Assembly (NCBI RefSeq): GCF_003945235.1 | Contig: NZ_RSDW01000001.1 | Coordinates: 1,320,001-1,352,000, forward strand | DNA: 32,000 nucleotides | Direction of reading: 5' to 3' | From: Edaphobacter aggregans | Lineage (GTDB): Bacteria > Acidobacteriota > Terriglobia > Terriglobales > Acidobacteriaceae | Part shown: in pieces, positions 3,246 through 30,062 of the stretch | Position numbering within the stretch: position 1 is the stretch's first letter | How the letters are laid out: the number at the start of each line of letters is the position of its first letter | Translations under genes and position numbers: made by a program | Notes under the pieces: model-generated | What the model saw: only the letters and a program-made list of their open reading frames with translations | Database searches by the model: none | Told to the model about the DNA's origin: nothing

Positions 3246-3326
3246 CGTGACAGGCTCTCCATTGTGACAACGCACGAAGCATACATTGCCGAGGCAGCGT
3301 TACCCTAGAAACAAGTTGGCGACGTT

Positions 3327-4838: not shown

Positions 4839-4868
4839 TTGACATATATAGCAATCTCCGCGTACTTT
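4839..4868 (+). promoter_or_regulatory. Candidate sigma70-type promoter for TBDR1 (weak -10)
   Basis: Perfect TTGACA at 4839-4844, 18-nt spacer, TACTTT at 4863-4868 (3/6 to TATAAT). Lies in the AT-rich 508-bp divergent intergenic region. Shares the TTGACATAT string with the TBDR2 promoter. By-eye call only. Confidence 0.25.
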
Positions 4869-5028
4869 CAATGCGGATTTCGAACGGAACGATTTGAGTA
4901 TCTGGGGTGTAGCTCTTAGGTTCGAACATTTGGCTTCAGCCTTTGAAGCTTGCAAGACAAGCGATGTTCGGAATACATCGCTCATGAAAGAAAAAACAGG
5001 CCGAAACATATTTTTGGAGGGATTTGCA

Positions 5029-8673: not shown

Positions 8674-8695
8674 CGCTGCGATCATGATCAGGGTG

Positions 8696-8727
8696 AAAGG
8701 GGAGCTTCGGCTCCCCTTTTTCTTCTT
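8696..8727 (+). terminator. Intrinsic terminator / attenuating hairpin between TBDR1 and the TPR gene
   Basis: A 10-bp perfect stem, AAAGGGGAGC (8696-8705) paired with GCTCCCCTTT (8710-8719), closed by a TTCG tetraloop and followed by TTCTTCTT. Lies 23 nt after the TBDR1 stop and 29 nt before the TPR start. Confidence 0.7.
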
Positions 8728-8755
8728 CCCATTTACACTCAGGTCTAGGTCGCTG

Positions 8756-9808: not shown

Positions 9809-9837
9809 AGGCCATAAGACAAGTCCTGTTCTCCATC

Positions 9838-11061: not shown

Positions 11062-11193
11062 CACAAATCCTCCCTGATCCAGCGCCATACGTTAGGCTTC
11101 AGACTTAAGAACGTGCGCTTCGAAATCTCTTGCATATTTTTTGAAGAAATTTTTCTTCGCCCTGCGTCCAAGCGACAGGAGTACCTTGAAGAC

Positions 11194-16523: not shown

Positions 16524-16543
16524 GCTTGCCCCTTGTTTTCCTG

Positions 16544-17947: not shown

Positions 17948-17994
17948 TTAGGCTCCTGAGTGGCAGTACTGCTATTTGCTATATACGTAAATGA

Positions 17995-19218
17995 TCACTG
18001 CGGCACCGATACCGGCTTGAGGCCGAGTGCCTTCAAATAACCTGGGTTCGTGTGAGCGTTATGAAGTTGAATATTTTCGAGTAGGCCAGCGAATGCTTTG
18101 TTTATGACTTCCTGATCCGGCCTTGCTTTTAGGCGCCCTTCAACCTGTCCTGTACCGCGCGGCAGTTTGGCAAAAGCGACGATCTGATCCCACCCTTCCG
18201 GAGGAGTGATGGTAACGACGGCGGATGTCTTGCCCATCTTCTTATAGGGCCAGAATGCCCAGCCAATATTGTGTTTCTCCATCAGAGCAACGAACTGAGC
18301 GATCCACTCATCGTTGTTTTCGCCAGATTCGCCCAGCCAGATCGGAACGTTATATTTATCGCGAAAGTCCAGATATTGCTGGATGACTGGTTCGTCTGTC
18401 TTCGACCAGTACTTATGAAAGGTGTAGGCGGTATTGCTGTCGAAGGGAGAACCAAAGACAGTGAAGTTACCGTCCCACTGAGCCCCGCCAAGAAAAAAGA
18501 TGTGATGCTTGTCGATCTGGCGAACTGCTGTGGATAACTTTTTATAGAGCGGCTCGAGCTTCGGATTCAACGAGGCCAAACGCGGGTAGTGCGGGATCGG
18601 CTCATTCAGAAGATCGTATCCAAGCACAGTGGGATTGTCTTTGTAATGATGTGCGATGCCCTGCCAAATCGCGATGAGATGCGCTTGCTCCTGAGGACTG
18701 TCGTAGAGCCATGGGTATCCGTAACTGTCGTCGATATTTGCGCCGGTCTGACCGCCGGGAGCAGCGTGCATGTCGATAACAACATAAAGGCCTTCCTCGC
18801 GACTCCATTGCAGAACGCGATCTAACAGAGTGAACCCTTCAGCATTATCCGCTTCAAAAAACTTGTAGTGGATTGGGATACGGATCGAATTAAACCCAGC
18901 TTCGCGGAGGAGATGAATGTCCTGCTGAGTAATGTAATTCTCGCGATATTGGCGCCAGAAATCCGCTGCCTTATCGGGACCGAGCAATTCGGTAACGAGG
19001 CCTTCGATCTCACGAGCCGACTGCGGGCCACCCTCGAACATCCACATATAGCCTTCAGGCACGAACCAGTTGCCCAGATTCGTCGCCCGCAGCAGAAGAG
19101 GCTTGCCGTTTCTGTCAACGATCTCCTTTTGTTGCGTGTGCGCAAACTGAGCAGAAAGGCTGGACGGAAGCAGCGAAAGCGACAGCACGGCAAGGCTTAA
19201 CAGACTGCGGAGCGACAT
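17995..19218 (-). CDS. Exported GH5 glycoside hydrolase (cellulase-family beta-glucanase)
   Basis: Signal peptide MSLRSLLSLAVLSLSLLPSSLSAQ. GH5 acid/base motif GYDLLNEP and nucleophile motif IWLGESGEN. GAGGGA lies 7 nt upstream of ATG 19218. Confidence 0.85.
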   Translation of the reverse strand: MSLRSLLSLAVLSLSLLPSSLSAQFAHTQQKEIVDRNGKPLLLRATNLGNWFVPEGYMWMFEGGPQSAREIEGLVTELLGPDKAADFWRQYRENYITQQDIHLLREAGFNSIRIPIHYKFFEADNAEGFTLLDRVLQWSREEGLYVVIDMHAAPGGQTGANIDDSYGYPWLYDSPQEQAHLIAIWQGIAHHYKDNPTVLGYDLLNEPIPHYPRLASLNPKLEPLYKKLSTAVRQIDKHHIFFLGGAQWDGNFTVFGSPFDSNTAYTFHKYWSKTDEPVIQQYLDFRDKYNVPIWLGESGENNDEWIAQFVALMEKHNIGWAFWPYKKMGKTSAVVTITPPEGWDQIVAFAKLPRGTGQVEGRLKARPDQEVINKAFAGLLENIQLHNAHTNPGYLKALGLKPVSVPQ

Positions 19219-19260
19219 GAGTAAATCCCTCGTAGGACGGGTTCGAAAATGAGACTGGTT

Positions 19261-21570
19261 TTACGGCAGAACAGTGAACGTCGTGTGTTGTGTCGCCGAA
19301 GAGTCGGCACCTACCCATAAATCGAAAGGGCCGGGTTCGATCGACCAGCGATGAGTCTGCGGACTCCAGAAGCCAAGGTCGTTCGTGTCGAGCGCGAACG
19401 TAACGGTCTGCTTCTCGCCAGGCTTGAGACTCACCCGACGAAAGGCTTTGAGCTCGCGCGTCGGACGTGACGCGGTGCCGGATCGTTGATGCGTGTAGAG
19501 CTGAACAACCTGATCACCCGCAGCCCCACCCGTGTTTTGCAGCTCGATAGAAACCGCCAACTTAGACCCGGCCTTCACTGAGATAGATTCTGTCTTGAGG
19601 TCATCCATCTTGAAAGTGGTATAGCTAAGACCATAGCCAAAGGGGTAGAGCGGCGCGCTGGAGCCATCCCAATAACGTGTATCGAGAGCATTCGGAATCT
19701 GCGTAAGAGTACGCGCATAGAAGATAGGAACCTGACCCACGCTGCGCGGCCAGCTCACCGGCAGTTTTCCTCCAGGATTCGCATCGCCGAAGAGCAGGTC
19801 CGCAACGGCATTGCCGCCCTCAGTCCCGGGATACCACGCGTCGAGGATAGCCGGCACATGCTCCGAAGCCCACGTAATATCGAGCGGGCGCCCGTTGAGA
19901 AGCACCAGCACGATTGGCTTCCCGGTGGCCACTGCCGCCTCGAGCAACTGCTGCTGACGTCCGGGAAGAGTAAGTGTGGAGCGTGAAGCCCGCTCACCGC
20001 TCATAGTCTGGGCCTCCCCCAAAACCAGCACAGCCACTTGCGATTGTTTGATGAGATCAATGGCATGTGCGAACTCTGCATCACGCTCCGCATCGGTTTT
20101 TAGCACTGGCTTTGGGCTGGGATATTGCGGATCAAAGATCGAAGGCTGAACCCGTTCAATCTCGACGCCCTTAGCCCAGTTGATGGTTGTACCTGATGGG
20201 AAGCGCTTGCGAATGCCTTCAAACACCGTAACAGCGTCCGCAGGATGAGTAGCCAGACTCCATGAGCCAGTAATGTCCGCCTGAGAATCGGCCAGCGGAC
20301 CAATGACGGCAATCGACGTAAGTGACTTGCTGAGAGGGAGCAGCCTGCCCTCATTCCGAAGTAGCACGGCGCTCCGTTCCGCAGCTTTTCGTGCCGACTG
20401 TCGCTGTTCAGGTGTGACGAGCTCAGTCTCGGCCCGCGATGACGCAACGTAAGGACTGGTGAAGAGCCCGAGACGATACTTCGCGGTAAGGATGCGACGC
20501 ACAGCCTCGTCAATCGTGGACTGCTGCACTAATCCCTGCTTCACCGCAGCAGCAAGCTCATCGCGAAAGACGTGGCTCGTCATCTCCATGTCGACGCCAG
20601 CGTTGACCGCACGAACGGCAGCGTCCTGCGGACCAGAAGCAAAGCCATGCGTCGTCAGACTCTTCACGGACTCCCAGTCACTCACCACGAAGCCATCGAA
20701 CTTCCACTTCTCACGCAACACATCGTGAAGCAGGAAGCGGTTGCCTGTAGCCGGTACGCCATTGAGGTCCATGTACGCGGACATCAACGAACCAGAACCC
20801 GCGCGAACAGCCGCCTCGAATGGAGGGAGATATATATTCCACAACTCCTCATCCGAGATGCTCGAAGAATCGTAGTCCCGCCCACCGACCGCAGCACCAT
20901 ACCCAGCGAAGTGCTTCACGCAGGCAAGAATGTGCTCTGGCGACCCGATCTTATCGCCCTGAAAACCACGAATTTGTGCAGCTGCCATCTGCGACCCAAG
21001 ATAGGGATCCTCGCCCGCGCCTTCCATGATGCGTCCCCAGCGAGGATCGCGCGCTATATCGACCATTGGCGCGAACGTCCAGTTAATTCCGACGGCGCTA
21101 GCTTCCTTCGCTGCCATTCGCTGAGCCTCTTCGGCCTGAGCAGGATCCCACGAGGCCGCAAGCGCCAGAGGAACCGGATAGATCGTACGGAATCCATGAA
21201 TCACATCGAATCCAAATATGAGGGGGATGTGAAGTCTTCCCTTCTCGACAGCCAGATGCTGCAGGCGATTGATCTCCTTCGCATCGGTGATGAAGAGAAA
21301 CGAGCCAACCTGCCCTTTCAAAATTCGCTCGTCAGGCGAGACGTCCTCCTTCTGGTTCAGTGGAATCTGGCTCATCTGCCCAAGCTTCTCTTCAAGGGTC
21401 ATCTTCTGCAGCAGATTGTCCACAAAGCGCGCTTCCGTTGTATCGCCCTCCCAGTTTTGTGGCGATTGTGCAAGACAAGAAGCTCCGGACAAAGTAATGG
21501 CAAGGCTGCCGACGAGCAGTCGACGAACCAAGGCGCACCTGGAGTAACAAAATGACATCAGAATCTCCAT
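19261..21570 (-). CDS. bglX: Periplasmic GH3 beta-glucosidase, BglX-like
   Basis: Collinear with E. coli BglX as I recall it: MTLEEKLGQM, KHFAGYGAAVGGRDY, nucleophile motif GFVVSDWES, LLNGRPL, GTEGGNAVADLLFGDANPGGKLPVSWPRSVGQVP, YPFGYGLSYTTF, and a C-terminal Fn3-like domain. Start is ambiguous: ATG 21570 (GGGAG 9 nt upstream), ATG 21558 (GGAG 6 nt upstream), or the longest ORF at 21609. Confidence 0.93.
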   Translation of the reverse strand: MEILMSFCYSRCALVRRLLVGSLAITLSGASCLAQSPQNWEGDTTEARFVDNLLQKMTLEEKLGQMSQIPLNQKEDVSPDERILKGQVGSFLFITDAKEINRLQHLAVEKGRLHIPLIFGFDVIHGFRTIYPVPLALAASWDPAQAEEAQRMAAKEASAVGINWTFAPMVDIARDPRWGRIMEGAGEDPYLGSQMAAAQIRGFQGDKIGSPEHILACVKHFAGYGAAVGGRDYDSSSISDEELWNIYLPPFEAAVRAGSGSLMSAYMDLNGVPATGNRFLLHDVLREKWKFDGFVVSDWESVKSLTTHGFASGPQDAAVRAVNAGVDMEMTSHVFRDELAAAVKQGLVQQSTIDEAVRRILTAKYRLGLFTSPYVASSRAETELVTPEQRQSARKAAERSAVLLRNEGRLLPLSKSLTSIAVIGPLADSQADITGSWSLATHPADAVTVFEGIRKRFPSGTTINWAKGVEIERVQPSIFDPQYPSPKPVLKTDAERDAEFAHAIDLIKQSQVAVLVLGEAQTMSGERASRSTLTLPGRQQQLLEAAVATGKPIVLVLLNGRPLDITWASEHVPAILDAWYPGTEGGNAVADLLFGDANPGGKLPVSWPRSVGQVPIFYARTLTQIPNALDTRYWDGSSAPLYPFGYGLSYTTFKMDDLKTESISVKAGSKLAVSIELQNTGGAAGDQVVQLYTHQRSGTASRPTRELKAFRRVSLKPGEKQTVTFALDTNDLGFWSPQTHRWSIEPGPFDLWVGADSSATQHTTFTVLP

Positions 21571-21660: not shown

Positions 21661-21689
21661 AGTTTAGACAAACGTTTGTTTATTGTCTA
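21661..21689 (-). promoter_or_regulatory. Candidate promoter of the GH3-GH5-GH30-fusion operon
   Basis: Read on the minus strand: TAGACA (plus coordinates 21684-21689), 17-nt spacer, TAAACT (21661-21666). The spacer is the operator palindrome. By-eye call. Confidence 0.35.
21665..21682. promoter_or_regulatory. LacI-family operator candidate (TAGACAAACGTTTGTTTA)
   Basis: Near-perfect palindrome centred on CG at 21673/21674, with one mismatch in the outer arm. It has the same core as the two perfect palindromes at 29843-29862 and 29937-29966. It overlaps both divergent promoter candidates. A shifted second copy of the right arm (TTGTCTA) lies at 21683-21689. Confidence 0.65.
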
Positions 21690-21693: not shown

Positions 21694-21837
21694 GACCATC
21701 AACGAAATTTTACGATCTCTGCTTCCTTCTGTGCCCGGTGCTCTTCTTGTATTCATGCTCTCTCCTTGGCCCCGTAGCGTATTGTTATTCTTTATCAAGA
21801 AACAGTTTCCCTTGGCTTAGGATTCACTGACGTCACC

Positions 21838-22890
21838 ATGAAAAAATCGGCCGCGCCTCACCCGCACGAAACGCGTCCCACCAGTCTCAAGATGCTGGCG
21901 GCGTACCTGAACTTAAGTCCGTCCACCATCTCCTACGTCCTGAACGATTCTCCTGGCCGCTCGATTCCAACTGCGACGCGCGACCGGGTGAAGGCCGCCG
22001 CCGCGAAATTCAACTATCGCCCTAGCATGATCGCCCGTACCCTGCAGGGAAAGCGCATGCAGACGATAGGAGTCCTCCTGCCTGAACTAGGCGAGGGATA
22101 CCACTCCCAGGTCCTGAGCGGTGTAGGAGACCTTGTCATCCGGGAAGGTTATTTCTATTTCACCGTTCACCACCGGCACAAAAAAGATCTGATCTCGGCC
22201 TATCCCGATCTTCTACGGTCTCGAGGCGTCGATGGCATCCTGGCAATCGACACGCATTTCGATGCGCCTCTGCCGCTGCCTACGGTCCTGGTGGCTGGAC
22301 ATACGGAACTACCCGGTGTAACAAACGTCATTCTCGATGAAAAACACGCGGCCCGGTTATCCCTGCGCCATCTCCATGAGCTCGGCCATCGCAGGATCGC
22401 CTTCATGCACGGCCAGCCCTTCAGCGCCGACTCGAATGCCCGCTGGGACTCGACGCTCGAGGCAGCGCGCGAACTCGGCCTTGATATCCACGAAGAACTC
22501 ATGATCCATCTCTCCAAGGACTCTCACTCGCCAGAGATCAGCTATCCCGGCATCCGAAAGCTTATCCAAAGCGGAAAACGTTTCTCCGCAGTCCTCTGCT
22601 TCAACGACGTCTCAGCGATGGGTAGCATCCGCGCCTTGCACGAGGCTGGACTCCGCGTCCCCGGCGACGTCTCCATCCTCGGCTTCGACGACATCCAGTC
22701 CTCGGCCTATCAGGTACCGAGCCTCACCACCATCCGGCAGCCTCTTCACAAGATGGGCAGCACCGCCTCCCGCATGCTCCTGAAAAAACTGGCCGGCGAG
22801 ACCACCCCTGAGCTCGTCCGGGTAGAACCCGAGTTAATCGTCCGCGAATCCACCGGTCCCGCCCACTCCCATCCCACAAAAAGACGCTGA
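21838..22890 (+). CDS. LacI/GalR-family transcriptional repressor
   Basis: N-terminal HTH: LKMLAAYLNLSPSTISYVLNDSPGRSIPTATRDRVKAAAAKFNYRPSMIARTLQ. PBP1 effector domain: TIGVLLPEL, AVLCFNDVSAMGSIRALHEAGLRVPGDVSILGFDD, LTTIRQPL. Divergent from the hydrolase operon. Confidence 0.92.
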   Translation: MKKSAAPHPHETRPTSLKMLAAYLNLSPSTISYVLNDSPGRSIPTATRDRVKAAAAKFNYRPSMIARTLQGKRMQTIGVLLPELGEGYHSQVLSGVGDLVIREGYFYFTVHHRHKKDLISAYPDLLRSRGVDGILAIDTHFDAPLPLPTVLVAGHTELPGVTNVILDEKHAARLSLRHLHELGHRRIAFMHGQPFSADSNARWDSTLEAARELGLDIHEELMIHLSKDSHSPEISYPGIRKLIQSGKRFSAVLCFNDVSAMGSIRALHEAGLRVPGDVSILGFDDIQSSAYQVPSLTTIRQPLHKMGSTASRMLLKKLAGETTPELVRVEPELIVRESTGPAHSHPTKRR

Positions 22891-23276: not shown

Positions 23277-25088
23277 TCAATGAGATGTTAGCGAGTCGCC
23301 AGCCGGAGTCAGCGTACCGCCCTGCTTGAGTTGGTAAAACCGGTTGGCTGCAACATTCTCGAAGACCTGTGTGCCGCCATTCGGCCAAAACACCTCGACC
23401 TTGTCGATACGGCTGGCCGAACCGAGCCCGAAGTGCAATCGCAGATCGCTCTGCGAGAGGTAGCTCCCACCGCTCCGCACCTCTCCAAGCTGCTGCTGTT
23501 TGCCCACCGTCACACGGACGCGAGCATTCAGAGCCAATCGGTTGGCCGGGCTGCCTTCCAGATCGAAGCTGACCCAGTGATTCGCCGGATTGCTCTTGGC
23601 CTCCAGAATCATCGGCGAGCCAGCCAGGTTTTCGACGACAATATCGAGTCGGCCCCGATTGAAAAGATCGCCCACGGCAAGCCCGCGACTCACCTGCGGC
23701 GTCCCAACCGCACCGCCAGTCTGCGCACTGACGTCCTTGAAAGTTCCGTCGCGCTGGTTCTGAAAGACAAGCTTCGGTTCGCGATAAGCCGTGCCAAGCT
23801 TGGCGTTATCGACCTGCGGATAGACATGCCCATTGACGAGGATCAGGTCCTGCCATCCTGAGTTGTCGAGATCGACAAACGCATTGCCCCAGCCAACGAA
23901 TGGAACCGTCGGACGCACGATCCCAGCCGAGTGCGAGACGTCAGTGAAGCTCATCCCACCATCGTTGCGGTAGAGCGTCGCATACTCATCGCTGAAGTGA
24001 CTAAGAAAGATGCTCATCCGACCGGTATTCAGGTAGTCACCCAGGGCAACGCCCATGTTGGCCTGCTCGACGCCATCCTCGCTAACAGCGACTCCGGCAT
24101 CCAGCGCAACCTCCTTGAACCGCCCGCCACCCTCATTGTGGTACAGATAGTTCGGCTCACCATCGTTGGCCACAAAAAGATCGAGCTTGCCATCGCCGTC
24201 GAAGTCCGACCAAACCGCACCGAGACCAAAGAATCGCTTAGGATCATCCACTCCAGCCTCTTTGGCAACCTCGGTAAAGGTCCCATCGCCGTTGTTACGG
24301 TAAAGCGTATCAGGATAGCCCTTCAACCCACGCGGCCCGCACTGCACAGCGATGTCATGGTACTCGCACGTCTTGCGCGAGCCAAACAAAGGAAGGTCGT
24401 GCATGTCAAAGTCAACGTAGTGCGGAACAAAGAGGTCGGAGTTGCCATCGCCATCGTAGTCACCAAACGTAACGCCAGTAGCCCATCCAGTGTCCTTGTC
24501 TAAACCCGAAGCTTTGGTGACATCTGTGAAGGTACCATCGCCATTGTTCCTGTAGAGCACGACGCCACCGAAGCAGCTAATGATGAGGTCAGGCCGGCCA
24601 TCATTGTTGTAATCTCCAACGGCTACACCCATAGCCCAGCAAGGATAGCCAACACCAGCCTTATCTGTGACATCGGTAAAGGTGCCGTCGTGGTTGTTAT
24701 GGAACAGAGCGCTCCTGGCCTTCTTACCCTCAAGTGCCATCGCAACATTTGGCGCATTGGTGAAGTAGATATCGAGCCAGCCGTCGCCATCGTAGTCGAT
24801 CAGCGCAACCCCACCGCTCATCGACTCAACAATGTACTTCTGCTCGGAACTTGCGAGGTGCTCGAAGTGAATTCCTGTAGAAGAAGTGATGTCGATAAGT
24901 TGCGAGACTTTGCCAATTACACCGTGATCACTGCTGGAAGCATTACTCTTTGCAGAAGCTTCCTTGGAGGTCACTGCTGATTGCTGTGCTCTTAGGCTCT
25001 GGCCTTGAAATCCGCGCGCGCAAAGCGCAATGCATACCAGAAGCGCCGCGAAGTGCAAGGCTCGCCCAGTGTCGATCTTGGCCGTCAC
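23277..25088 (-). CDS. Exported CRTAC1-family protein (FG-GAP/VCBS beta-propeller repeats plus C-terminal ASPIC/UnbV domain)
   Basis: Repeated Ca-binding-type loops: DYDGDGWLD, DYNNDGRPD, DYDGDGNSD, DFDGDGKLD, DLDNSGWQD. Each follows G-V/A-x-x-G-D. C-terminal UnbV/ASPIC-like segment: GSYLSQSDLRLHFGLG...KVEVFWPNGGTQVFENVAANRFYQL. GTG start at 25088 lies only 2 nt after the upstream TPR stop (TAG, 25091-25093), indicating tight coupling. Confidence 0.85.
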   Translation of the reverse strand: MTAKIDTGRALHFAALLVCIALCARGFQGQSLRAQQSAVTSKEASAKSNASSSDHGVIGKVSQLIDITSSTGIHFEHLASSEQKYIVESMSGGVALIDYDGDGWLDIYFTNAPNVAMALEGKKARSALFHNNHDGTFTDVTDKAGVGYPCWAMGVAVGDYNNDGRPDLIISCFGGVVLYRNNGDGTFTDVTKASGLDKDTGWATGVTFGDYDGDGNSDLFVPHYVDFDMHDLPLFGSRKTCEYHDIAVQCGPRGLKGYPDTLYRNNGDGTFTEVAKEAGVDDPKRFFGLGAVWSDFDGDGKLDLFVANDGEPNYLYHNEGGGRFKEVALDAGVAVSEDGVEQANMGVALGDYLNTGRMSIFLSHFSDEYATLYRNDGGMSFTDVSHSAGIVRPTVPFVGWGNAFVDLDNSGWQDLILVNGHVYPQVDNAKLGTAYREPKLVFQNQRDGTFKDVSAQTGGAVGTPQVSRGLAVGDLFNRGRLDIVVENLAGSPMILEAKSNPANHWVSFDLEGSPANRLALNARVRVTVGKQQQLGEVRSGGSYLSQSDLRLHFGLGSASRIDKVEVFWPNGGTQVFENVAANRFYQLKQGGTLTPAGDSLTSH

Positions 25089-25090
25089 AG

Positions 25091-26281
25091 CTACTTGCTC
25101 ACCTTGTCTTGCTGCTCGTCCTGCTCCGTACCGAGGCGCAGAGCCTTGTAGATCTGCCGCATCTTTTCTTTAATGTCCTTGTACTTTTGGTAGGCTTCCA
25201 GCTCGCGCTTGGCATCATCAGGACGATTCAGTTTGCGATAGACAGTGCTCAGCCGATAGTGCGCAAGAACATTGGCAGGATCGGCAGCAATAACCTGCTC
25301 GAGCAACGCCACAGCAGAGGCAGCCTCGTTCTTCTCGCTATAAACATGGGCCAAGCCAATCGCAGCATCAGCATCGTTAGGAGCGAGCGCCAGCGCCTGC
25401 TTGTAATACGCAGCTGCGCTATCGAGATCGCCCTTATCGGAGGCAAGGTCTCCCAGACGAGCGACGGCCTTTTCGTCGGAGCTGTTGACGGCGACTGCAA
25501 GCTTGTACTGTTCCTCAGCCTCGGCTCGTAGTTTCAAATCTGGCGAAGCATGGAGCGCCTCCGCCAACTCAAAGTGAATCCCCGGCAAGTTCGGATCAGC
25601 AGCCAACGCCTTCCTGTAGTTGGCAATTGCGCCAGCGGTATCCCGCTCGCGTACCAGTTCATGTGCCATCACCTGATACATCTGCCCGGAATCGGACGCT
25701 GCGACTGACAGATCCAGCATCGCCTCTCCCGCCAGATCGGTGTAAATTCTGTAAGCCGCATAAAGAACTCGCGGATCGGTGGGCGCTCCCTGTCGTAGAA
25801 TCGCAACAACGCTCGCAGCCTTTTCCAACTCCTGCGATGCACTATAGATCTCGATTAGTTCGAGTCCCGCCTCTAGACGTATGTTGGGCTCTTGCAACTG
25901 ATCGACGACAGCCTGCAGATCAGCACGCGCCGCGTCCGTTTTGCCAATGCGGCGTTCGCACATGCCAAGCAACGCGCGAATCTTAGTCAGGTCAGGCTTT
26001 TGCTCGATAGCATCACGCAGATGCGGCTCAGCCGCCGAATAGTCCTTTTGAAAGTAAAGCAGGACACCGAGATTTGCCTGTGCGTCCAGGTTATGCGGAT
26101 CAACCGCCAACACCGCAGCAAATTCCTTAATTGCAAGCTCAGGCTTCGTCTCGTTCAGAAGCTGATGCGCTCGCTGTTCATGCAACTGCACCTGCTGCGC
26201 CACCGAGTCAACACCCGCTTGCGCCGCATCCGCAACGACTCCACCCATAGCTAACAACAGAAGAAAGGAAAACACCCGCAT
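25091..26281 (-). CDS. Exported TPR protein, TBDR2-associated
   Basis: Signal peptide MRVFSFLLLLAMGGVVADAAQA. Serial TPR-like units: AIKEFAAVLAVDPHNLDAQANLGVLLY, YRKALAADPNLPGIHFELAEAL, YKQALALAPNDADAAIGLAHVY, LEQVIAADPANVLAHYRLSTVY. Confidence 0.8.
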   Translation of the reverse strand: MRVFSFLLLLAMGGVVADAAQAGVDSVAQQVQLHEQRAHQLLNETKPELAIKEFAAVLAVDPHNLDAQANLGVLLYFQKDYSAAEPHLRDAIEQKPDLTKIRALLGMCERRIGKTDAARADLQAVVDQLQEPNIRLEAGLELIEIYSASQELEKAASVVAILRQGAPTDPRVLYAAYRIYTDLAGEAMLDLSVAASDSGQMYQVMAHELVRERDTAGAIANYRKALAADPNLPGIHFELAEALHASPDLKLRAEAEEQYKLAVAVNSSDEKAVARLGDLASDKGDLDSAAAYYKQALALAPNDADAAIGLAHVYSEKNEAASAVALLEQVIAADPANVLAHYRLSTVYRKLNRPDDAKRELEAYQKYKDIKEKMRQIYKALRLGTEQDEQQDKVSK

Positions 26282-26323
26282 TGCAAGACCGTCCGATCCT
26301 GGTATGGATCGTATCTTAAAGGA

Positions 26324-26356
26324 AGATGGGATGGCGAAGATGTCGCCATCCCATCT
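26324..26356 (-). terminator. Strong intercistronic hairpin between TBDR2 and its TPR gene (partial terminator or processing/stability element)
   Basis: A 14-bp perfect stem, AGATGGGATGGCGA (26324-26337) paired with TCGCCATCCCATCT (26343-26356), with a 5-nt loop. On the transcribed (minus) strand it is followed by TCCTTTAAGAT, which is only moderately U-rich. It lies 9 nt after the TBDR2 stop. Confidence 0.5.
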
Positions 26357-26365
26357 GGTGATTGG

Positions 26366-29300
26366 TTAGAAGGATATGCGTCCGCTAAGTTGCATGGTAC
26401 GACCGCCAACCGTGACTCCCCTGATCGTTGAGGTTCCAGTTGCGATCGTGCCATTCGGATTCACAACAAGCTGAGCAGAGCCCTGTTCGCCTCCTGTAGT
26501 TGGCAGATTGAAGCTCGGGTGGTTGAAGATGTTATTTGCATCTGCACGAAGCTGGAACTTCACCGACTCCCATATTGCAAATGTCTTACCTAGGGAGAAG
26601 TTCACCTGTGAAAGTCCAGGCCCATTCAGGATGTTTCGGCCGGCATTGCCAAAGGTCCCTGGTGCAGGCGCCGCAAACGCAGCCTCATTGAACCACTGGT
26701 TCGTTCCATGGAATGGCCCCTTACTGGAGAGATGAGGATTCCCAATTACGTTGGGATACCACTGTGAGTTTTGAGATTGTGCGAACGAGTTATCCGTCTT
26801 CATAGAGACTGTAAACGGCTGACCGCTCTGAACAACGAGCGTGCCACTCGTCTGCCAGCCACCAATGAGTACATCGAGCAACGTATTGTTATTGACGAAC
26901 GTTCTGCCCTTTCCGAAAGGAAGCTGATAAATAGCGCTTCCCTTGATCGCATTCCTTACATCAAAGTTTGAATTTCCGTAGTTTGCAGAAGGATCGAACG
27001 AGCGTTGATAGTTTAGCGCGCCCGCCCGGCTGCCCCAGCCTGATGAATCCTGTTCGCTCAGGAAGTGGGCCCAGACATAGTTGAAATCAAAGCTCACCCC
27101 ATGGGACAGACGTTTTTGAATACTAGCCTGGAGTGAGTTGTAATTTGAGAGGGCATTGTTGGTGCTGCCGAAGATATTCCCGAATTGCGGAAATGCACGG
27201 AATGCCTTGTCGTTGGCGGACAGTTTGTTCTCCGGGACCTGGTTAATATCAACCGGGAACAGAAGATCGTGGCCATGGCTGCCTACATAGGCCAATTCAA
27301 CTGCCAGGTTGGGATTTAGCTCCTCCTGCACGCTGAGATTCCACTGATAGCTGCCACCTACGGGTGCGTGATACTGGTTGTAGTTGACGTTTGTGCCGTT
27401 GAATGCCGCTGGATCGGTACTGGCAGGAATGTATGGCAGATTGGAGCCGGTACCACCTAAAATCCCGATCGGTGTAACGTTACCGGTATCGCTGACATTA
27501 CCCCTCGTGCCGAAAGCCTGCCCCATGCCTGGCGCATACCTATCCAGGCTCCAGTTGTAGGCATAGAGACCAAATCCACCTCTTATCGTGGCGTTTGGAC
27601 GCATAAGCCATGCGAAGCCGACGCGGGGAAGAATAGTGTCATACACCGGGGCCTGAAGCGTGGTGCGACCATTTGCCTTCGTGGAACCAAACCAGTAGGC
27701 ACCGAGGGTACCTGTGGCGGGGTTTTGCACCGTTGGATCGAAGGTCGCCATATTACCTTTGACTTCGCCCCATCCTGACTGGATCTGATACCTCAGTCCA
27801 AGATTGATTGTCAGGTTCGGCGTTAGTTTGTAGTCGTCCTGGATGAACAACTGCGGAAGTCTCATACGTCCGCCATACTCCGGTGTCACCTGTGCGCTCC
27901 AGTTCTGCATTTGTCCCAGAAGGAAGTCAGCATAAGCGAGGCCGGTAGTGCTATCACCCGGTGTTGACGAGCTATATACGCCCGTGAAGCCCATAGTGCC
28001 GCCGTTTATATTTCCCCAGGCCGTCGAGTTGTCGCGGAAGAAAAGGAACTCTCCTCCAAAATGAAGAATGTGCTTACCGCGAATCAAAGTAACCACGTCG
28101 GAAGGATCGTAGACATGTTCTTTATAAACCGCGTTAATGTTCGATGAGAGGCCGTAGTAGCCGTTGATGTTAATGTTTGGGAAGATGTCCGCCTTCGCAT
28201 ATTGCCATCCCAACTTGGCCGGGAAGCCTTGATTGAGCGATGCGGGAACGAAGAAGTTCAACTGGTTCGTGTAGCCGACCCGGAGTTCGTTAATCACATT
28301 TGGGCTGATCGTCCACACATCTGTGATCTGGGCGTTGTACCGACTGACATCCCCAGATTGGCAGTTAATGGGGCATATACCCTGTCCGTTGCTGTATGCC
28401 GGATTATCGCTCTGCTGAACGGTTGCCGTCAGCCGATTATTTCCTCTGATGTCATAGTCTGCGCGGCCAAAGAATTTTGTGAACGGATTCGCATTCGGGA
28501 TGTTATAGAAAAAGTTGTTCGATGTAAGACCGTTCGCTACTGTTCCCGCTGTATTCGGAGTGGGGTAGTACTTCTGAAGAGCTAGCGCTAGAGGGTCGAA
28601 TCTAGATGCGGGAATCTTGTTGCCCTGGCCATATTCAGCCGCGAAAGAGGTCCGGTCGTAACAAGGGCAAGTTTGAGTGGTTCCGTTTGGAAGGGTTCGC
28701 GTCCCTGTAGCCTGGCTAAGCTTCGTCGTCGCAGGATCGTAAATCGTCGATTGGCCGGTGAAGTCTCCAGTGAGCATTGCTGAGGTAGGAACCGTAGTGA
28801 ATTGAAGTGTAGAAGCCCCAGGATTCACGATTTTGTCATAGTTGAAAAAGAAGAAAAGTTTTCTTTTCAAGACGGGCCCCCCGACAGAAAACCCAAAATT
28901 GTTATAACGAAGACGAGAGACCGCTTTGCTTCTTGGCAGTTGCGCAAAGGCATAGTTTGCTGCGTTGAGCGCGTCGTTTTGCCAGAACTCGTAAACATCG
29001 CCGTGGAATCTGTCCGTGCCGCCCTTGCTGATTTGGTTGAACATGATGCCGCCAATTCCATACTGTGCGGAGAAGTTGGACGCAGCAACTTTCACTTCCT
29101 GAATCGCATCCAGAACCATCACGTCGGCGTTTGCGCTCGAGGGCAGTGTAATAGCGGCGCCATCTGCGAGAACAGTGCTGTACGGTAAATTTCCATTTAC
29201 TGAAATTACCTGGCCAGGATTATTTGCCCCCTGTGAGCCGCCCGCCATCGGAGCACCAGAGCCTCCGGGCAATAGGATCGTGAAGTTCTGCCAGTCCTGT

Positions 29301-29770
29301 CCAACCTGCGGTAATTCCGACAGCTGCCTTGCGCTAAGCGTAGTGGATTGCTCCGCGTTCTCGGTTGCTAGCAGGGGAATGTCGGCCTGCACCACTACCT
29401 GCTCCGTTACAGCACCAACCGTTAGCTGCGCGTTGACAGTGACATTTCCCACGTCAATCGTCAAAGATGACCGAACGTATGTTTGGAATCCTGGTTTGGA
29501 GAACGTAAGTTCGTAGGTTCCGGTGACAATCGAGGATGTGTCGTACAAACCATCTTGGTTCGTAGTAAGAACCTTTGTTACTCCAGTGTTCTTATTAACC
29601 ACCGTTACGGTCACGTCAGGAAGCACGGCGCCGCTCGCATCGGTTACAACACCACGGATATCGCCAGCATTCATACTCTGCGCGAAGCCGACTTCCGTAA
29701 GGCTGAGTCCAACCGCAAAGCTTAACGTTATCGTCAGCAGACTCACTTTCAATTTGCCTCTAAAGCTCAT
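26366..29770 (-). CDS. TonB-dependent outer-membrane receptor with N-terminal carboxypeptidase-regulatory-like domain (TBDR2)
   Basis: ORF 26366..29791. Start placed at ATG 29770 (AGGAGG 4 nt upstream). Signal peptide MSFRGKLKVSLLTITLSFAVGLSLTEVGFAQS. CarboxypepD_reg-like segment: GVVTDASGAVLPDVTVTVVNKNTG...YELTFSKPGFQTY. Plug-like segment: LSARQLSELPQVGQDWQNFTILLPGG. C-terminal OMP signature ...GRISF. Confidence 0.85.
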   Translation of the reverse strand: MSFRGKLKVSLLTITLSFAVGLSLTEVGFAQSMNAGDIRGVVTDASGAVLPDVTVTVVNKNTGVTKVLTTNQDGLYDTSSIVTGTYELTFSKPGFQTYVRSSLTIDVGNVTVNAQLTVGAVTEQVVVQADIPLLATENAEQSTTLSARQLSELPQVGQDWQNFTILLPGGSGAPMAGGSQGANNPGQVISVNGNLPYSTVLADGAAITLPSSANADVMVLDAIQEVKVAASNFSAQYGIGGIMFNQISKGGTDRFHGDVYEFWQNDALNAANYAFAQLPRSKAVSRLRYNNFGFSVGGPVLKRKLFFFFNYDKIVNPGASTLQFTTVPTSAMLTGDFTGQSTIYDPATTKLSQATGTRTLPNGTTQTCPCYDRTSFAAEYGQGNKIPASRFDPLALALQKYYPTPNTAGTVANGLTSNNFFYNIPNANPFTKFFGRADYDIRGNNRLTATVQQSDNPAYSNGQGICPINCQSGDVSRYNAQITDVWTISPNVINELRVGYTNQLNFFVPASLNQGFPAKLGWQYAKADIFPNININGYYGLSSNINAVYKEHVYDPSDVVTLIRGKHILHFGGEFLFFRDNSTAWGNINGGTMGFTGVYSSSTPGDSTTGLAYADFLLGQMQNWSAQVTPEYGGRMRLPQLFIQDDYKLTPNLTINLGLRYQIQSGWGEVKGNMATFDPTVQNPATGTLGAYWFGSTKANGRTTLQAPVYDTILPRVGFAWLMRPNATIRGGFGLYAYNWSLDRYAPGMGQAFGTRGNVSDTGNVTPIGILGGTGSNLPYIPASTDPAAFNGTNVNYNQYHAPVGGSYQWNLSVQEELNPNLAVELAYVGSHGHDLLFPVDINQVPENKLSANDKAFRAFPQFGNIFGSTNNALSNYNSLQASIQKRLSHGVSFDFNYVWAHFLSEQDSSGWGSRAGALNYQRSFDPSANYGNSNFDVRNAIKGSAIYQLPFGKGRTFVNNNTLLDVLIGGWQTSGTLVVQSGQPFTVSMKTDNSFAQSQNSQWYPNVIGNPHLSSKGPFHGTNQWFNEAAFAAPAPGTFGNAGRNILNGPGLSQVNFSLGKTFAIWESVKFQLRADANNIFNHPSFNLPTTGGEQGSAQLVVNPNGTIATGTSTIRGVTVGGRTMQLSGRISF

Positions 29771-29842
29771 ATTGCCTCCTAAATATCTCAAACGACATAG
29801 CCTCTATCGTGGGCATCAGATCGTGAAGCGGGAATCAAAAAC

Positions 29843-29862
29843 ATAAGACAAACGTTTGTCTT
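29843..29862. promoter_or_regulatory. Operator candidate, promoter-distal (start-codon-proximal): 20-bp perfect palindrome TAAGACAAACGTTTGTCTTA
   Basis: Perfect dyad centred on CG 29852/29853, inside the TBDR2 leader 73 nt upstream of ATG 29770. On the mRNA strand it is followed by UGUUUUU (plus coordinates 29836-29842). Confidence 0.65.
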
Positions 29863-29936
29863 AATTGGCAAAAACTCTATCCAGTAACCAAGCTCACCAC
29901 CTGACCAATTAACCTTTTTTGAACCCGATTTGCTTC

Positions 29937-29966
29937 CAATCTAAGACAAACGTTTGTCTTAGATTG
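29937..29966. promoter_or_regulatory. Operator candidate, promoter-proximal: 30-bp perfect palindrome CAATCTAAGACAAACGTTTGTCTTAGATTG
   Basis: Perfect dyad centred on CG 29951/29952, beginning about 25 nt downstream of the predicted transcription start. Its centre is 99 bp from the other palindrome centre. Confidence 0.65.
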
Positions 29967-29997: not shown

Positions 29998-30027
29998 AAT
30001 ATAGAAAGGATTCGTCAGATATGTCAA
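29998..30027 (-). promoter_or_regulatory. Near-consensus sigma70-type promoter of the TBDR2-TPR-CRTAC1 operon
   Basis: Read on the minus strand: TTGACA (plus coordinates 30022-30027), 18-nt spacer, TATATT (29998-30003). This predicts a leader of roughly 220 nt containing both palindromes. Confidence 0.5.
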
Positions 30028-30062
30028 GCGTTTATTTCGAATTGTGTTCGTAGAGTGGACAA

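What the first reader, a model, noticed from the sequence alone, without database searches (positions are those of the whole stretch)
29843..29966. Two perfect palindromes (20 and 30 bp) in the TBDR2 leader share their core with the lacI/GH3 operator, defining a regulon
Seen directly: TAAGACAAACGTTTGTCTTA (29843-29862) and CAATCTAAGACAAACGTTTGTCTTAGATTG (29937-29966). Both lie downstream of a TTGACA-18-TATATT promoter. A third copy, TAGACAAACGTTTGTTTA, sits at 21665-21682 between the LacI-family gene and the GH3 operon.

Under uniform base composition a 20-bp perfect palindrome is expected about 0.03 times in 32 kb, so three copies of the same dyad are not chance. The AAACGTTT core with a central CG fits the LacI/GalR operator pattern.

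Inference: the repressor at 21838-22890 co-controls the four exported hydrolases and the TBDR2-TPR-CRTAC1 operon. That gives two uncharacterised proteins (TPR, CRTAC1) a functional context. The two operators have centres 99 bp apart, and a degenerate 11/16 match at 30022-30037 overlaps the -35. This three-site layout could support repressor looping.
Basis: partly seen in the sequence, partly recalled or inferred. Interest (0 to 1): 0.65.

Follow-up and report, generated by a model that had tools for sequence, protein, structure and literature searches.

The report
LacI-type operators of a beta-glucan regulon
The palindromes are real, conserved binding sites for the neighbouring LacI-family repressor, which switches a set of beta-glucan-degrading enzymes and an outer-membrane import operon in soil Acidobacteria; this is an ordinary kind of sugar switch, newly mapped in a little-studied phylum.

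Summary
The 20-bp palindrome lies at 29844-29863, not 29843-29862. The two centres are 98 bp apart, not 99.

The conserved unit is a 16-bp dyad, AGACAAACGTTTGTCT. It has three strong copies in the window, against 0.07 expected by chance.

I fetched 79 loci around orthologues of the LacI gene, all from Acidobacteriaceae. There the dyad sits almost only in front of the GH3 operon/lacI divergon and the TBDR2 operon. It follows GH30, GH55 and TBDR genes when they are rearranged. A motif-first metagenome scan recovered the same gene set, so this is not a dispersed repeat.

- **GH3 operon:** the operator fills the spacer of a conserved promoter and touches its -10 (T[A/G]GACA-17-TAnnnT). This implies promoter occlusion.
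- **TBDR2 operon:** both operators lie downstream of a conserved TTGACA-18-TATATT promoter, at about +39 and +137. This implies a roadblock, possibly with cooperation between the sites.
- **Operator pairs:** spacing clusters at 93-111 bp across lineages, which hints at looping. The repressor, however, lacks a LacI-type tetramerisation tail.
- **Claimed third site (30022-30037):** not supported.
- **Arms of the 30-bp palindrome:** lineage-specific, most likely made by hairpin-templated mutation.

Verdict: a new member of a known kind, of moderate interest.

The parts
29844..29863 (.). Proximal operator of the TBDR2 operon. It is a 20-bp perfect palindrome; the conserved 16-bp core AGACAAACGTTTGTCT is 29846-29861. 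Its centre is 83 bp upstream of the TBDR2 ATG, about +137 from the predicted transcription start.
   Evidence: 32.4 bits. The orthologous position is invariant in the aligned TBDR2 leaders.
29937..29966 (.). Distal operator of the TBDR2 operon. It is a 30-bp perfect palindrome; the conserved core is 29944-29959. The outer 7-bp arms CAATCTA/TAGATTG are specific to this lineage. Its centre is about +39 from the predicted start.
   Evidence: The distal site is conserved in the close relatives L001-L004, L113 and L143. The arms are not conserved.
29998..30027 (-). Predicted sigma-70-type promoter of the TBDR2 operon: TTGACA (30027-30022), 18-nt spacer, TATATT (30003-29998).
   Evidence: 11 of 12. 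It is conserved as CTTGACA-N18-TATA[T/G]T at the same distance from the distal operator in win, L001-L004, L183, L115 and L165; L109 and L198 also carry it upstream of both operators. No experimental transcription start is available.
21665..21682 (.). Operator in the GH3/lacI divergon: TAGACAAACGTTTGTTTA. The core is 21666-21681, with one mismatch. Its centre is 103 bp upstream of the GH3 ATG (21570) and 164 bp upstream of the lacI ATG.
   Evidence: 30.6 bits. It is the only strongly conserved block of the intergenic alignment.
21661..21689 (-). Predicted promoter of the GH3-GH5-GH30-GH55-like operon: TAGACA (21689-21684), 17-nt spacer, TAAACT (21666-21661). The operator fills the spacer and overlaps the first base of the -10.
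   Evidence: In all 37 GH3/lacI divergons examined, the hexamer that starts at the last operator base reads TAnnnT, and a T[A/G]GACA-like hexamer lies 17-18 nt upstream (alignment).
21838..22890 (+). LacI/GalR-family repressor gene, 350 aa: an N-terminal helix-turn-helix plus hinge, then a periplasmic-binding-protein-like effector domain. It has a short basic C-terminal tail and no tetramerisation helix.
   Evidence: Pfam LacI, Peripla_BP_1 and Peripla_BP_3. The closest solved full-length repressor is PurR, E = 2e-39, aligned over residues 17-340. It reaches no NCBIfam equivalog cut-off.
21774..21782 (+). Candidate extended -10 element (TGTTATTCT, of the form TGnTAyTnT) of lacI's own promoter, about 55 bp upstream of the lacI ATG and about 105 bp downstream of the operator centre.
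   Evidence: It is the second conserved block in the intergenic alignment (CTGATACTGT, CTGCTATTGT, TTGTTATTCT). This is an inference from conservation only.
13533..21570 (-). Target operon 1: GH3 (19261-21570), GH5 (17995-19218), GH30 (16544-17947) and a GH55-like beta-helix protein with a C-terminal SGL domain (13533-16523). Gaps between genes are 20-47 bp.
   Evidence: Pfam. PDB hits: GH55 glucan 1,3-beta-glucosidase 3eqn/5m5z; GH30 best hit 5ngk; GH5 hits include exo-beta-1,3-glucanases. Synteny is conserved.
23277..29770 (-). Target operon 2: a TonB-dependent-type outer-membrane barrel, TBDR2 (26366-29770, ATG at 29770 after GGAGG); a TPR protein (25091-26281); and an FG-GAP/ASPIC-UnbV (CRTAC1-like) protein (23277-25088).
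   Evidence: Pfam. The order CRTAC1-TPR-TBDR2 is conserved next to lacI in most loci L001-L062. The start codon and ribosome-binding site are read.

Best explanation
The three dyads are operators for the LacI/GalR-family repressor encoded at 21838-22890. The recognised unit is the 16-bp even palindrome AGACAAACGTTTGTCT with a central CG.

Without inducer, a repressor dimer binds in two places:

1. The GH3-GH5-GH30-GH55-like operon promoter. There the operator fills the spacer and touches the -10, so RNA polymerase is excluded.
2. Two operators in the transcribed leader of the TBDR2-TPR-CRTAC1 operon, at about +39 and +137 from a conserved TTGACA-18-TATATT promoter. There it blocks elongation. 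The two sites may stabilise each other.

A breakdown product of beta-1,3/1,6-glucan, such as laminaribiose, gentiobiose or a related oligosaccharide, is inferred to release the repressor. Secreted glucanases and the outer-membrane uptake machinery are then induced together.

Shown here: the sites exist, are non-random, are conserved, and track these genes and this regulator across Acidobacteriaceae. Inferred: actual binding, the promoters and transcription starts, the identity of the inducer, and any cooperativity.

The extra arms that make the distal site 30 bp long are not part of the operator. They are best explained as a lineage-specific hairpin-templated (template-switch) mutation.
For: **Motif type.** It is an even palindrome with a central CG and 16 informative positions. 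Positions +-9 carry little information and +-10 none. This fits the LacI-family rule of 16-22-nt even palindromes with a central CG (PMC4052901).

**Regulator next door.** The gene has the LacI helix-turn-helix plus a PBP domain. It aligns end to end with PurR, including the hinge (query PSMIARTLQ against PurR PSAVARSLK).

**Non-randomness.** 3 sites against 0.07 expected in the window. 148 against 3 in shuffles across 1.48 Mb of orthologous loci.

**Target specificity.** 118 of 120 sites are intergenic. GH3 38 of 39, TBDR2 40 of 48 and lacI 65 of 86 have a site within 350 bp upstream. Internal operon genes mostly have none. Unrelated ORFs: 28 of 743.

**The motif follows relocated genes.** Examples are GH30 in L029 and L041, GH3 in L040, and TBDR2 in L051 and L062.

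**Reciprocal test.** An exact 18-mer scan of metagenomes gave 120 contigs. In 80 the site lies upstream of LacI, TBDR2, GH3, GH30 or GH5 homologues. Most of the rest are low-GC or very short contigs.

**Promoter overlap at GH3.** All 37 divergons have TAnnnT starting at the last operator base, and T[A/G]GACA 17-18 nt upstream.

**TBDR2 promoter.** It is conserved upstream of both operators in close relatives.

**Regulator and motif change together.** The helix LSPSTIS[Y/F]VLN and hinge PSMIARTLQG are near-invariant where the motif is AGACAAACGTTTGTCT (most of L001-L062, with a few conservative substitutions). Both the protein segment and the motif change in L063-L079.

**Substrate context.** GH55-like, GH30 and GH5 with beta-1,3-glucanase relatives, plus GH3. 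In relatives the same operator precedes proteins about 500 bits similar to 4pew/4tyv (from memory, a Streptomyces GH55 laminarinase) and MFS transporters.
Against: - There is no binding or expression data. Promoters and transcription starts are consensus matches supported only by conservation.
- An operator centred at +39 or +137 is far downstream for simple occlusion, so repression at TBDR2 relies on a roadblock or cooperative model that is not demonstrated.
- The site matrix was built from sites pre-selected by similarity to the dyad, so the information content inside the 16-mer is partly circular. The flanks were not constrained.
- The same core, AACAAACGTTTGTT, is bound by an unrelated Thermus regulator, TTHA0973 (PMC6651687). 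The sequence alone therefore does not prove the family.
- I could not scan a complete genome of this organism. The regulon could be larger than seen here.
Confidence: 0.85

Rival explanations
1. This refines the best explanation rather than replacing it. The two TBDR2 operators act as a cooperative pair: two repressor dimers bridge about 98 bp of DNA into a loop, as in the GalR repressosome or the LacI O1-O3 loop. That loop, not a simple roadblock, gives tight repression.
For: Operator pairs in front of TBDR genes are spaced 93-111 bp apart in 26 of 36 sequence-distinct pairs, from lineages whose LacI proteins are only 52-94% identical. The sequence between the operators is not alignable across these groups.

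Spacing shows two modes, at about 97-98 and 107-109 bp. A test against uniform spacing gives p of about 0.013.

In a second group of relatives (L063, L064, L067, L080, L119, L122, L128, L150, L164, L180) a TTGACA -35 lies between the two operators, with a TATATT or TAAATT -10 scored in five of them. The distal operator is then near -72 and the proximal near +25. This is the gal operon layout.
Against: The protein ends about 10 residues after the core domain with a basic tail. It has no LacI-type heptad tetramerisation helix, and neither do its orthologues.

The periodicity signal is broad, with R of about 0.45-0.49 for any period from 10 to 12 bp. The pairs are not phylogenetically independent. 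Values of 104-106 bp also occur.

Many orthologous leaders work with a single operator (L006-L017).

In the window both operators lie downstream of the predicted promoter, so a loop would not enclose it.
Confidence: 0.3
2. The palindromes work mainly as RNA hairpins in the long 5' leader of the TBDR2 mRNA, for example in stability, processing or attenuation, rather than as protein-binding DNA.
For: Both TBDR2 sites are predicted to be transcribed. The leader folds with both palindromes as hairpins, at -60.7 kcal/mol and z = -2.2.

In three lineages the arms beyond the core are perfectly complementary but differ in sequence. This looks like compensatory change.
Against: The core is conserved as sequence, not as pairing: it is invariant at 16 positions, with no covariation.

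The same dyad sits inside a promoter spacer at GH3, where it is not expected to be transcribed as a hairpin.

The extended arms are absent from most orthologues (3 of 41 perfect-core sites).

There is no Rfam match in the window. No T-tract follows either hairpin.
Confidence: 0.05
3. The dyad is bound by a different regulator, not the adjacent LacI-family protein. Candidates are a TetR-family protein like Thermus TTHA0973, or the GntR-PBP hybrid regulator at 3327-4520.
For: TTHA0973 prefers AACAAACGTTTGTT, which shares the same 12-bp core (PMC6651687). A second PBP-domain regulator is encoded in the window.
Against: No TetR gene is present in the window. The GntR-PBP gene is not part of the conserved neighbourhood in the 79 loci.

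By contrast, 65 of 86 lacI orthologues have the dyad within 350 bp upstream. The motif-first scan also recovers lacI homologues next to the site. The LacI recognition helix and hinge change together with the motif.
Confidence: 0.04
4. The palindrome is a dispersed repeat (REP- or MITE-like), or a chance feature with no specific regulatory role.
For: It is a perfect palindrome that occurs several times. A minority of metagenome hits (34 of 120) had no recognisable regulon gene nearby.
Against: Sites occur once or twice per regulatory region and are tied to a small set of orthologous genes. Only the 16-bp core is shared, with no common flanks.

Most of the unexplained metagenome hits are from low-GC unrelated organisms or from contigs too short to show a neighbour.

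Chance expectation is exceeded about 40-fold or more.
Confidence: 0.01

Closest known systems
PurR / LacI-GalR family repressor-operator pairs (E. coli PurR box ACGCAAACGTTTGCGT)
   Same: It is a 16-bp even palindrome with a central CG and the shared CAAACGTTTG core. The regulator aligns with PurR over residues 17-340, including the helix-turn-helix and a hinge helix with the Leu expected to insert at the central CpG. Operators overlap the promoter or lie downstream of it, as roadblocks, as is known for this family (PMC4052901).
   Different: The outer positions are AGAC/GTCT rather than ACGC/GCGT. The protein reaches no NCBIfam equivalog cut-off. The targets are glycan-degradation and outer-membrane uptake genes, not purine synthesis. 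PurR needs a corepressor, whereas this protein is inferred to be released by a sugar inducer, like most local LacI-family regulators.
Carbohydrate-utilisation (CUT) loci with TonB-dependent receptors in Xanthomonas and Caulobacter, e.g. the sux locus with the LacI/GalR-family repressor SuxR (PMC1790865)
   Same: A LacI/GalR-family repressor encoded in the locus controls a TonB-dependent outer-membrane transporter gene together with the degradative enzyme genes, and a sugar induces them (for SuxR; here).
   Different: - The phylum is Acidobacteriota.
- The transporter is the long CarboxypepD_reg + OMP_b-brl_4 type.
- It is followed by TPR and FG-GAP/ASPIC-UnbV proteins that have no counterpart in sux.
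- No inner-membrane transporter gene carries the operator in this window, although MFS genes do in relatives.
- The substrate is inferred to be beta-1,3/1,6-glucan rather than sucrose.
gal operon OE/OI (GalR repressosome) and lac O1/O3 auxiliary operators
   Same: There are two operators about 100 bp apart. This compares with 113 bp for gal and 92 bp for lac O1-O3 (figures from established knowledge). In one group of relatives the promoter sits between the operators, as in gal.
   Different: In the window both operators are downstream of the predicted promoter. There is no tetramerisation helix. Dependence on HU or another architectural protein is unknown. Evidence for helical phasing is weak.
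Bacteroidota polysaccharide utilisation loci for beta-glucans (SusC/SusD with GH3, GH30_3, GH16 or GH158)
   Same: An outer-membrane TonB-dependent transporter gene is co-localised and co-regulated with secreted beta-glucanases. The GH30 here is closest to PDB 5ngk. From memory, 5ngk is the Bacteroides endo-beta-1,6-glucanase BT3312.
   Different: There is no SusD. TPR and ASPIC/UnbV proteins occupy the position after the transporter. Regulation is by a cytoplasmic LacI-family repressor, rather than by the hybrid two-component, SusR-like or ECF-sigma systems typical of Bacteroidota (established knowledge).
Quasi-palindrome correction by intrastrand template switching (Ripley model; from memory, also invoked for the creation of RNA hairpins)
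   Same: Multi-base changes make one flank the exact complement of the other. They arose independently in three lineages and in both directions.
   Different: Here the seed palindrome is a transcription-factor operator. Whether the longer hairpin has any selected function is unknown.

Membership tests
LacI/GalR-family operator | Even palindrome of 16-22 nt with a central CG (PMC4052901) | tested here: met
   The 16-bp dyad AGACAAACGTTTGTCT has a central CG. Information is confined to 16 positions (rule).
LacI/GalR-family operator | A cognate LacI-family regulator (helix-turn-helix + hinge + PBP-like effector domain) encoded nearby | tested here: met
   Pfam LacI, Peripla_BP_1 and Peripla_BP_3. 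PurR alignment covers residues 17-340. The dyad lies within 350 bp upstream of 65 of 86 orthologues.
LacI/GalR-family operator | Sites conserved in front of orthologous target genes across genomes (phylogenetic footprint, regulog) | tested here: met
.
LacI/GalR-family operator | [quoted passage not shown] | tested here: met
   Distances to the ATG: GH3 operator 103 bp, proximal TBDR2 operator 83 bp, distal TBDR2 operator 181 bp. The GH3 operator overlaps the promoter. The TBDR2 operators lie downstream of the conserved promoter. The promoters are predictions.
LacI/GalR-family operator | Direct, effector-sensitive binding of the regulator to the site | not testable with these tools
   Needs EMSA or footprinting with purified protein, with and without laminaribiose, gentiobiose, cellobiose or glucose.
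LacI-type tetramer looping | C-terminal heptad-repeat tetramerisation helix | tested here: not met
   Alignments to LacI end at query residue 337. The tail is GPAHSHPTKRR, and orthologues have similar short basic tails.
LacI-type tetramer looping | Auxiliary operator at a helically phased distance | tested here: inconclusive
   Spacing clusters at 93-111 bp with modes near 98 and 108. Rayleigh R is about 0.47-0.49 and is not specific to one period. p is about 0.013 against uniform spacing, and the pairs are not independent.
GalR-type repressosome | Two operators flanking the promoter, about 110 bp apart | tested here: not met
   In the window both operators are downstream of the predicted promoter. 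The feature is met in a different group of relatives, such as L063, L064, L067 and L080. The need for HU cannot be tested.
TBDR-containing carbohydrate utilisation (CUT) locus | TonB-dependent outer-membrane transporter, degradative enzymes and a regulator in one co-regulated locus | tested here: met
TBDR-containing carbohydrate utilisation (CUT) locus | Inner-membrane sugar transporter belonging to the same locus or regulon | tested here: inconclusive
   No transporter gene carries the operator in this window. The MFS gene at 1917-3275 lies in another cluster. In relatives, MFS-like genes carry the operator: L023 matches Pfam MFS_1, while L025 and L028 have no Pfam hit.
Dispersed repeat (REP/MITE-like) | Many copies at unrelated loci, with shared flanks | tested here: not met
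Known structured RNA (Rfam) | Match to a curated covariance model | tested here: not met
   No match at gathering threshold anywhere in the window.

The most novel reading that the evidence does not exclude
In Acidobacteriaceae, a LacI-family dimer without a tetramerisation helix represses its outer-membrane uptake operon through a conserved operator pair about 100 bp apart. The pair forms a GalR-like loop or repressosome, placed either around the promoter or just downstream of it.

The co-regulated TBDR-TPR-ASPIC/UnbV trio would be the acidobacterial functional counterpart of SusC/SusD for importing fungal or algal beta-1,3/1,6-glucan. That would assign a first function to the widespread bacterial CRTAC1-like (ASPIC/UnbV) proteins.
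Probability: 0.25. Interest if true: 0.6.

Novelty: new member of a known kind. Interest (0 to 1): 0.35.

Why it matters
Acidobacteriota are among the most abundant soil bacteria, yet almost no transcription-factor regulons have been mapped in them. The large LacI-family regulon survey (PMC4052901) does not mention the phylum.

This finding provides:
- A well-supported operator motif and its regulator.
- A defined target set that links secreted GH55-like, GH30, GH5 and GH3 enzymes with a TonB-dependent transporter operon. It points to beta-1,3/1,6-glucan, from fungal cell wall or laminarin-type sources, as the substrate.
- A testable physiological context for two protein families of unknown role, the TPR and ASPIC/UnbV (CRTAC1-like) proteins that follow acidobacterial TBDR genes.
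- A simple sequence handle for finding such loci in soil metagenomes.

The mechanism itself is textbook. The value lies in annotation and ecology rather than in a new concept.

Tried and rejected
1. **Third operator overlapping the -35 (30022-30037).** Rejected. It scores 3.3 bits. 11/16 matches are common (15 positions in the window reach 11/16 or better, counting the three true sites, against 7.2 in shuffles). It is not conserved in relatives.

2. **A 30-bp operator.** Rejected. Positions beyond +-8 carry little or no information. Only 3 of 41 perfect-core sites have long arms, and the arm sequences differ.

3. **Plus-strand promoter TAGACA-17-TATATT for lacI.** Its TATATT is not conserved beyond the closest relatives. 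The conserved flanks fit the minus-strand GH3 promoter instead. A conserved TGnTAyTnT block nearer to lacI is the better candidate for its own promoter. Direct autoregulation of lacI is therefore left open.

4. **Rfam scan of the whole window.** No match.

5. **Intrinsic terminator reading of the palindromes.** Rejected. No T-tract follows either one.

6. **Helical-phase test of operator spacing.** Suggestive only.

7. **Literature search for the motif, or for acidobacterial LacI/TBDR regulation.** I found no prior description of this system. The only full-text hit for the 12-mer core was the Thermus regulator TTHA0973.

8. **Weak matches upstream of TBDR1.** These are 4704-4723 (9.8 bits) and a half-site at about 4570-4578. 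They are not convincing as operators of this repressor.

Full report
**Observation**

The sequences are present. TAAGACAAACGTTTGTCTTA is a perfect 20-bp palindrome at 29844-29863, one base to the right of the stated coordinates. CAATCTAAGACAAACGTTTGTCTTAGATTG is a perfect 30-bp palindrome at 29937-29966. TAGACAAACGTTTGTTTA lies at 21665-21682.

The shared 16-mer AGACAAACGTTTGTCT, allowing up to 3 mismatches, occurs 3 times in the window. Dinucleotide-preserving shuffles give 0.07, and none of 100 reached 3. Perfect palindromes of 20 bp or more are expected 0.035 times per shuffled window. The centres of the two TBDR2 sites are 98 bp apart.

**Gene context**

- 21838-22890 (+): a LacI-family regulator.
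- Divergent from it, on the minus strand: GH3, GH5, GH30 and a large beta-helix protein with an SGL domain.
- Convergent with it, on the minus strand: a CarboxypepD_reg + OMP_b-brl_4 outer-membrane barrel (TBDR2), a TPR protein and an FG-GAP/ASPIC-UnbV protein.

PDB searches refine the enzyme assignments.
- The beta-helix protein is related to GH55 beta-1,3-glucanases (3eqn, 5m5z).
- The GH30 is closest to 5ngk.
- The GH5 has exo-beta-1,3-glucanases among its relatives.

The regulator aligns with PurR over residues 17-340, including the hinge. It reaches no named NCBIfam equivalog. It ends in a short basic tail.

**Comparative test**

A search of one-genome-per-species contigs with the LacI protein returned 79 loci. 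All are from Acidobacteriaceae (Edaphobacter, Granulicella, Acidipila, Bryocella and many MAGs), with 52-94% protein identity. The window therefore comes from an Edaphobacter-related acidobacterium.

Across these 1.48 Mb the dyad (3 mismatches or fewer) occurs 148 times, against 3 in shuffled sequence. The gene order [GH55-like, GH30, GH5, GH3] <- -> lacI <- [CRTAC1-like, TPR, TBDR2] is widely conserved.

Of 120 sites with 2 mismatches or fewer, 118 are intergenic. The number of genes with a site within 350 bp upstream is shown below.

| Gene class | With a site / total |
|---|---|
| GH3 | 38 / 39 |
| TBDR2 | 40 / 48 |
| lacI | 65 / 86 |
| CRTAC1-like (internal to its operon) | 0 / 37 |
| TPR (internal) | 4 / 38 |
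| GH55-like (internal) | 2 / 26 |
| Other long ORFs | 28 / 743 |

Where gene order has changed, the site moves with the gene. GH30 heads its own unit in L029 and L041, GH3 in L040, and TBDR2 lies on the other side in L051 and L062.

Some of the 'other' ORFs that carry the site fit the same theme:
- a Pfam-confirmed MFS transporter in L023, with similar ORFs in L025 and L028 that have no Pfam hit;
- secreted proteins, two of them with Ricin-B or malectin modules.

One representative of the secreted proteins matches 4pew/4tyv at E = 1e-148. From memory, these entries are the Streptomyces GH55 laminarinase.

**Reciprocal test for dispersal**

- In 80, the site lies within 600 bp upstream of a homologue of LacI, TBDR2, GH3, GH30 or GH5.
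- In 6 more, such genes lie elsewhere on the contig.
- The other 34 are mostly low-GC contigs from unrelated organisms, or very short contigs.

**What the operator is**

A symmetrised count matrix from the collected sites shows high information at the 16 core positions, a weak A/T preference at +-9, and none at +-10. The inner positions are partly constrained by how the sites were collected; the flanks were not.

In the window only three positions score high, at 32.4, 32.4 and 30.6 bits. The next best scores 9.8 bits. [quoted passage not shown]

Regulator and motif change together. In most of L001-L062, which use AGACAAACGTTTGTCT, the recognition helix LSPSTIS[Y/F]VLN and the hinge PSMIARTLQG are conserved, with a few conservative substitutions. 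In L063-L079 these segments read L[D/N]P[T/A]TVSVVLN and P[S/N][F/L]LARSLRN, and the nearby dyads have altered central or outer positions.

**Mechanism at the GH operon**

In the alignment of the GH3/lacI intergenic region, the only strongly conserved block is the operator plus a few flanking bases. Read on the GH3 strand, this block is T[A/G]GACA, 17-18 nt, TAnnnT. The operator occupies the spacer, and its last base is the first base of the -10.

All 37 divergons examined show TAnnnT at that position (TAAACT 13, TAGAAT 6, TAAAAT 5, and others). Bound repressor would therefore exclude RNA polymerase. This step is inferred from position.

A second conserved block, TGnTAyTnT, lies about 55 bp upstream of the lacI ATG (window 21774-21782). 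It looks like an extended -10 for lacI itself. The operator is about 105 bp upstream of it, so direct autoregulation is uncertain.

**Mechanism at the TBDR2 operon**

The TTGACA-18-TATATT match (30027-29998, minus strand) scores 11 of 12. It is conserved, with the same distance to the distal operator, in the close relatives and in several metagenome contigs.

With a transcription start near 29991, the operators are centred at about +39 and +137, and the leader is about 220 nt long. The start codon is the ATG at 29770, preceded by GGAGG. The most likely action is a block to elongation or promoter escape.

More distant orthologues (L006-L017) have a single operator just downstream of a different conserved promoter-like element. 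A further group has a TTGACA -35 hexamer lying between two operators; a TATATT or TAAATT -10 was scored for five of these ten.

**Spacing and looping**

Thirty-six sequence-distinct operator pairs were collected from all loci. In 26 of them the spacing is 93-111 bp, with modes near 97-98 and 107-109 bp. This holds even though the intervening sequence is not alignable between groups and the promoter position differs.

This argues for a constraint on distance and so for some interaction between the two bound dimers. The evidence is limited in three ways:
- The periodicity statistic is modest and not specific to one period (R = 0.45-0.49 for 10-12 bp; p about 0.013 against uniform spacing).
- The pairs are phylogenetically related.
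- The protein has no LacI-type tetramerisation helix.

I rate looping as possible, at about 0.3, and not shown.

**The long palindrome**

Among 41 sites with a perfect 16-mer, three extend by 7-8 further pairs, against 0.003 expected:
- the window's distal site, and its near-identical relative L143, which was not among the 41;
- L004 (32 bp);
- L007 (30 bp).

The arm sequences differ between lineages (CAATCTA, CCGGTCAA, CCGTCAA).

Several relatives share a left flank of the form (C/T)GTCAA, and L003 and L113 share a right flank resembling TGATTAGG.
- In the window lineage, the left flank has become the exact complement of the right.
- In L004 and L007, the right flank has become the complement of the left.

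Three independent multi-base conversions in both directions are the signature of hairpin-templated (template-switch) mutation at a pre-existing palindrome. The extra length is therefore most simply a mutational by-product, not an extended operator. A selected RNA-hairpin role cannot be excluded, but it is not needed.

The leader folds with both palindromes as hairpins, as it must. Rfam finds nothing in the window.

**Comparison with known systems**

The pair works like any local LacI/GalR repressor with its operator, and PurR is its closest solved relative. Functionally the locus resembles the TBDR-containing carbohydrate utilisation loci of Xanthomonas and Caulobacter. In the sux locus, for example, the LacI/GalR-family SuxR represses the TBDR gene suxA (PMC1790865).

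It differs in phylum, in transporter type, in the TPR and ASPIC/UnbV partners, and in the inferred substrate.

My searches found no earlier description of this motif or regulon in Acidobacteria. The 12-bp core is also the preferred site of the Thermus regulator TTHA0973 (PMC6651687). The assignment to the LacI protein therefore rests on linkage and co-variation, not on the sequence alone.

**Verdict**

It is a new member of a known kind: a LacI-family local regulon for beta-glucan use in Acidobacteriaceae. Interest is moderate, mainly for annotation and soil ecology. Two side observations merit follow-up: the conserved operator spacing of about 100 bp, and the recurrent extension of the palindrome.

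Noticed in passing
window 29937-29966; L004 17665-17696; L007 17587-17616: The operator palindrome has been lengthened to 28-32 bp three separate times, with different arm sequences. In the window lineage the left flank was rewritten as the complement of the right. In L004 and L007 the right flank was rewritten as the complement of the left. This is the signature of hairpin-templated (template-switch) mutation.
   Followed up: yes
L063 ~15186-15300; also L064, L067, L080, L119, L122, L128, L150, L164, L180: These relatives show a second regulatory layout. A TTGACA -35 hexamer sits between the two operators (a TATATT or TAAATT -10 was scored for five of the ten), with the distal operator near -72 and the proximal near +25, as in the gal operon. 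In the window group the promoter lies upstream of both. Operator spacing stays at 93-111 bp in both layouts.
   Followed up: partly
L025 5271-7148; L032 5754-8372; L042 7471-9762; L055 17744-19465: In relatives, the same operator precedes secreted proteins with no Pfam hit in the catalytic part and a shared N-terminal NFGPNV motif. Two of them carry C-terminal Ricin-B or malectin modules. The one tested (L025) matches PDB 4pew/4tyv at E = 1e-148; from memory these are a bacterial GH55 laminarinase. This supports a beta-1,3-glucan regulon.
   Followed up: partly
L023 3531-4715; L025 3930-5102; L028 623-1894: MFS-type inner-membrane transporter candidates carry the operator in relatives; only L023 has a Pfam MFS_1 hit. 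No transporter gene carries it in this window.
   Followed up: partly
L063-L065, L067, L069, L073 (several lacI copies per locus): These lineages hold two or three LacI paralogues per locus. Next to them are dyads with altered centres (ACGGTT, ACCCTT, ACTATT) and several TBDR operons. This looks like a paralogue family with diverging operator specificities.
   Followed up: partly
window 4568-4585 and 4704-4723: Between the GntR-PBP hybrid regulator gene (3327-4520) and TBDR1 (4894-8673) there is an isolated half-site TAGACAAAC and a weak dyad-like match ATGCATAAAGGTTTGTCTAA (9.8 bits). It is unclear whether these are cross-talk with the LacI repressor, sites of the GntR-PBP regulator, or chance.
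   Followed up: no
window 21774-21782: TGTTATTCT, about 55 bp upstream of the lacI ATG, is conserved among orthologues as TGnTAyTnT. It is a likely extended -10 promoter for lacI, separate from the operator, so lacI may not be directly autoregulated.
   Followed up: partly
window 29775-29835: The roughly 60 nt between the proximal operator and the TBDR2 start codon (…CACGATCTGA.GCC…ATAGAGGCTATG.CGTTTG…TTTAGGAGGCAATATG) is well conserved among the close relatives. It is more conserved than the rest of the leader. It may be a translational or RNA-level control element.
   Followed up: no
window 30214-31974: The gene upstream of the TBDR2 promoter, on the same strand, matches the Acidobacteria-specific VWA domain model TIGR03436 (acidobact_VWFA, 176 bits). 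It has no operator of its own.
   Followed up: no
window 16-13454: The left half of the window holds a second, separate sugar cluster: alpha-amylase, an MFS sugar transporter, a GntR-PBP hybrid regulator, TBDR1 and a TPR protein. Next to it are an ARPP-1 domain protein and a protein containing sigma-70 region 4. None of these carries the dyad.
   Followed up: no
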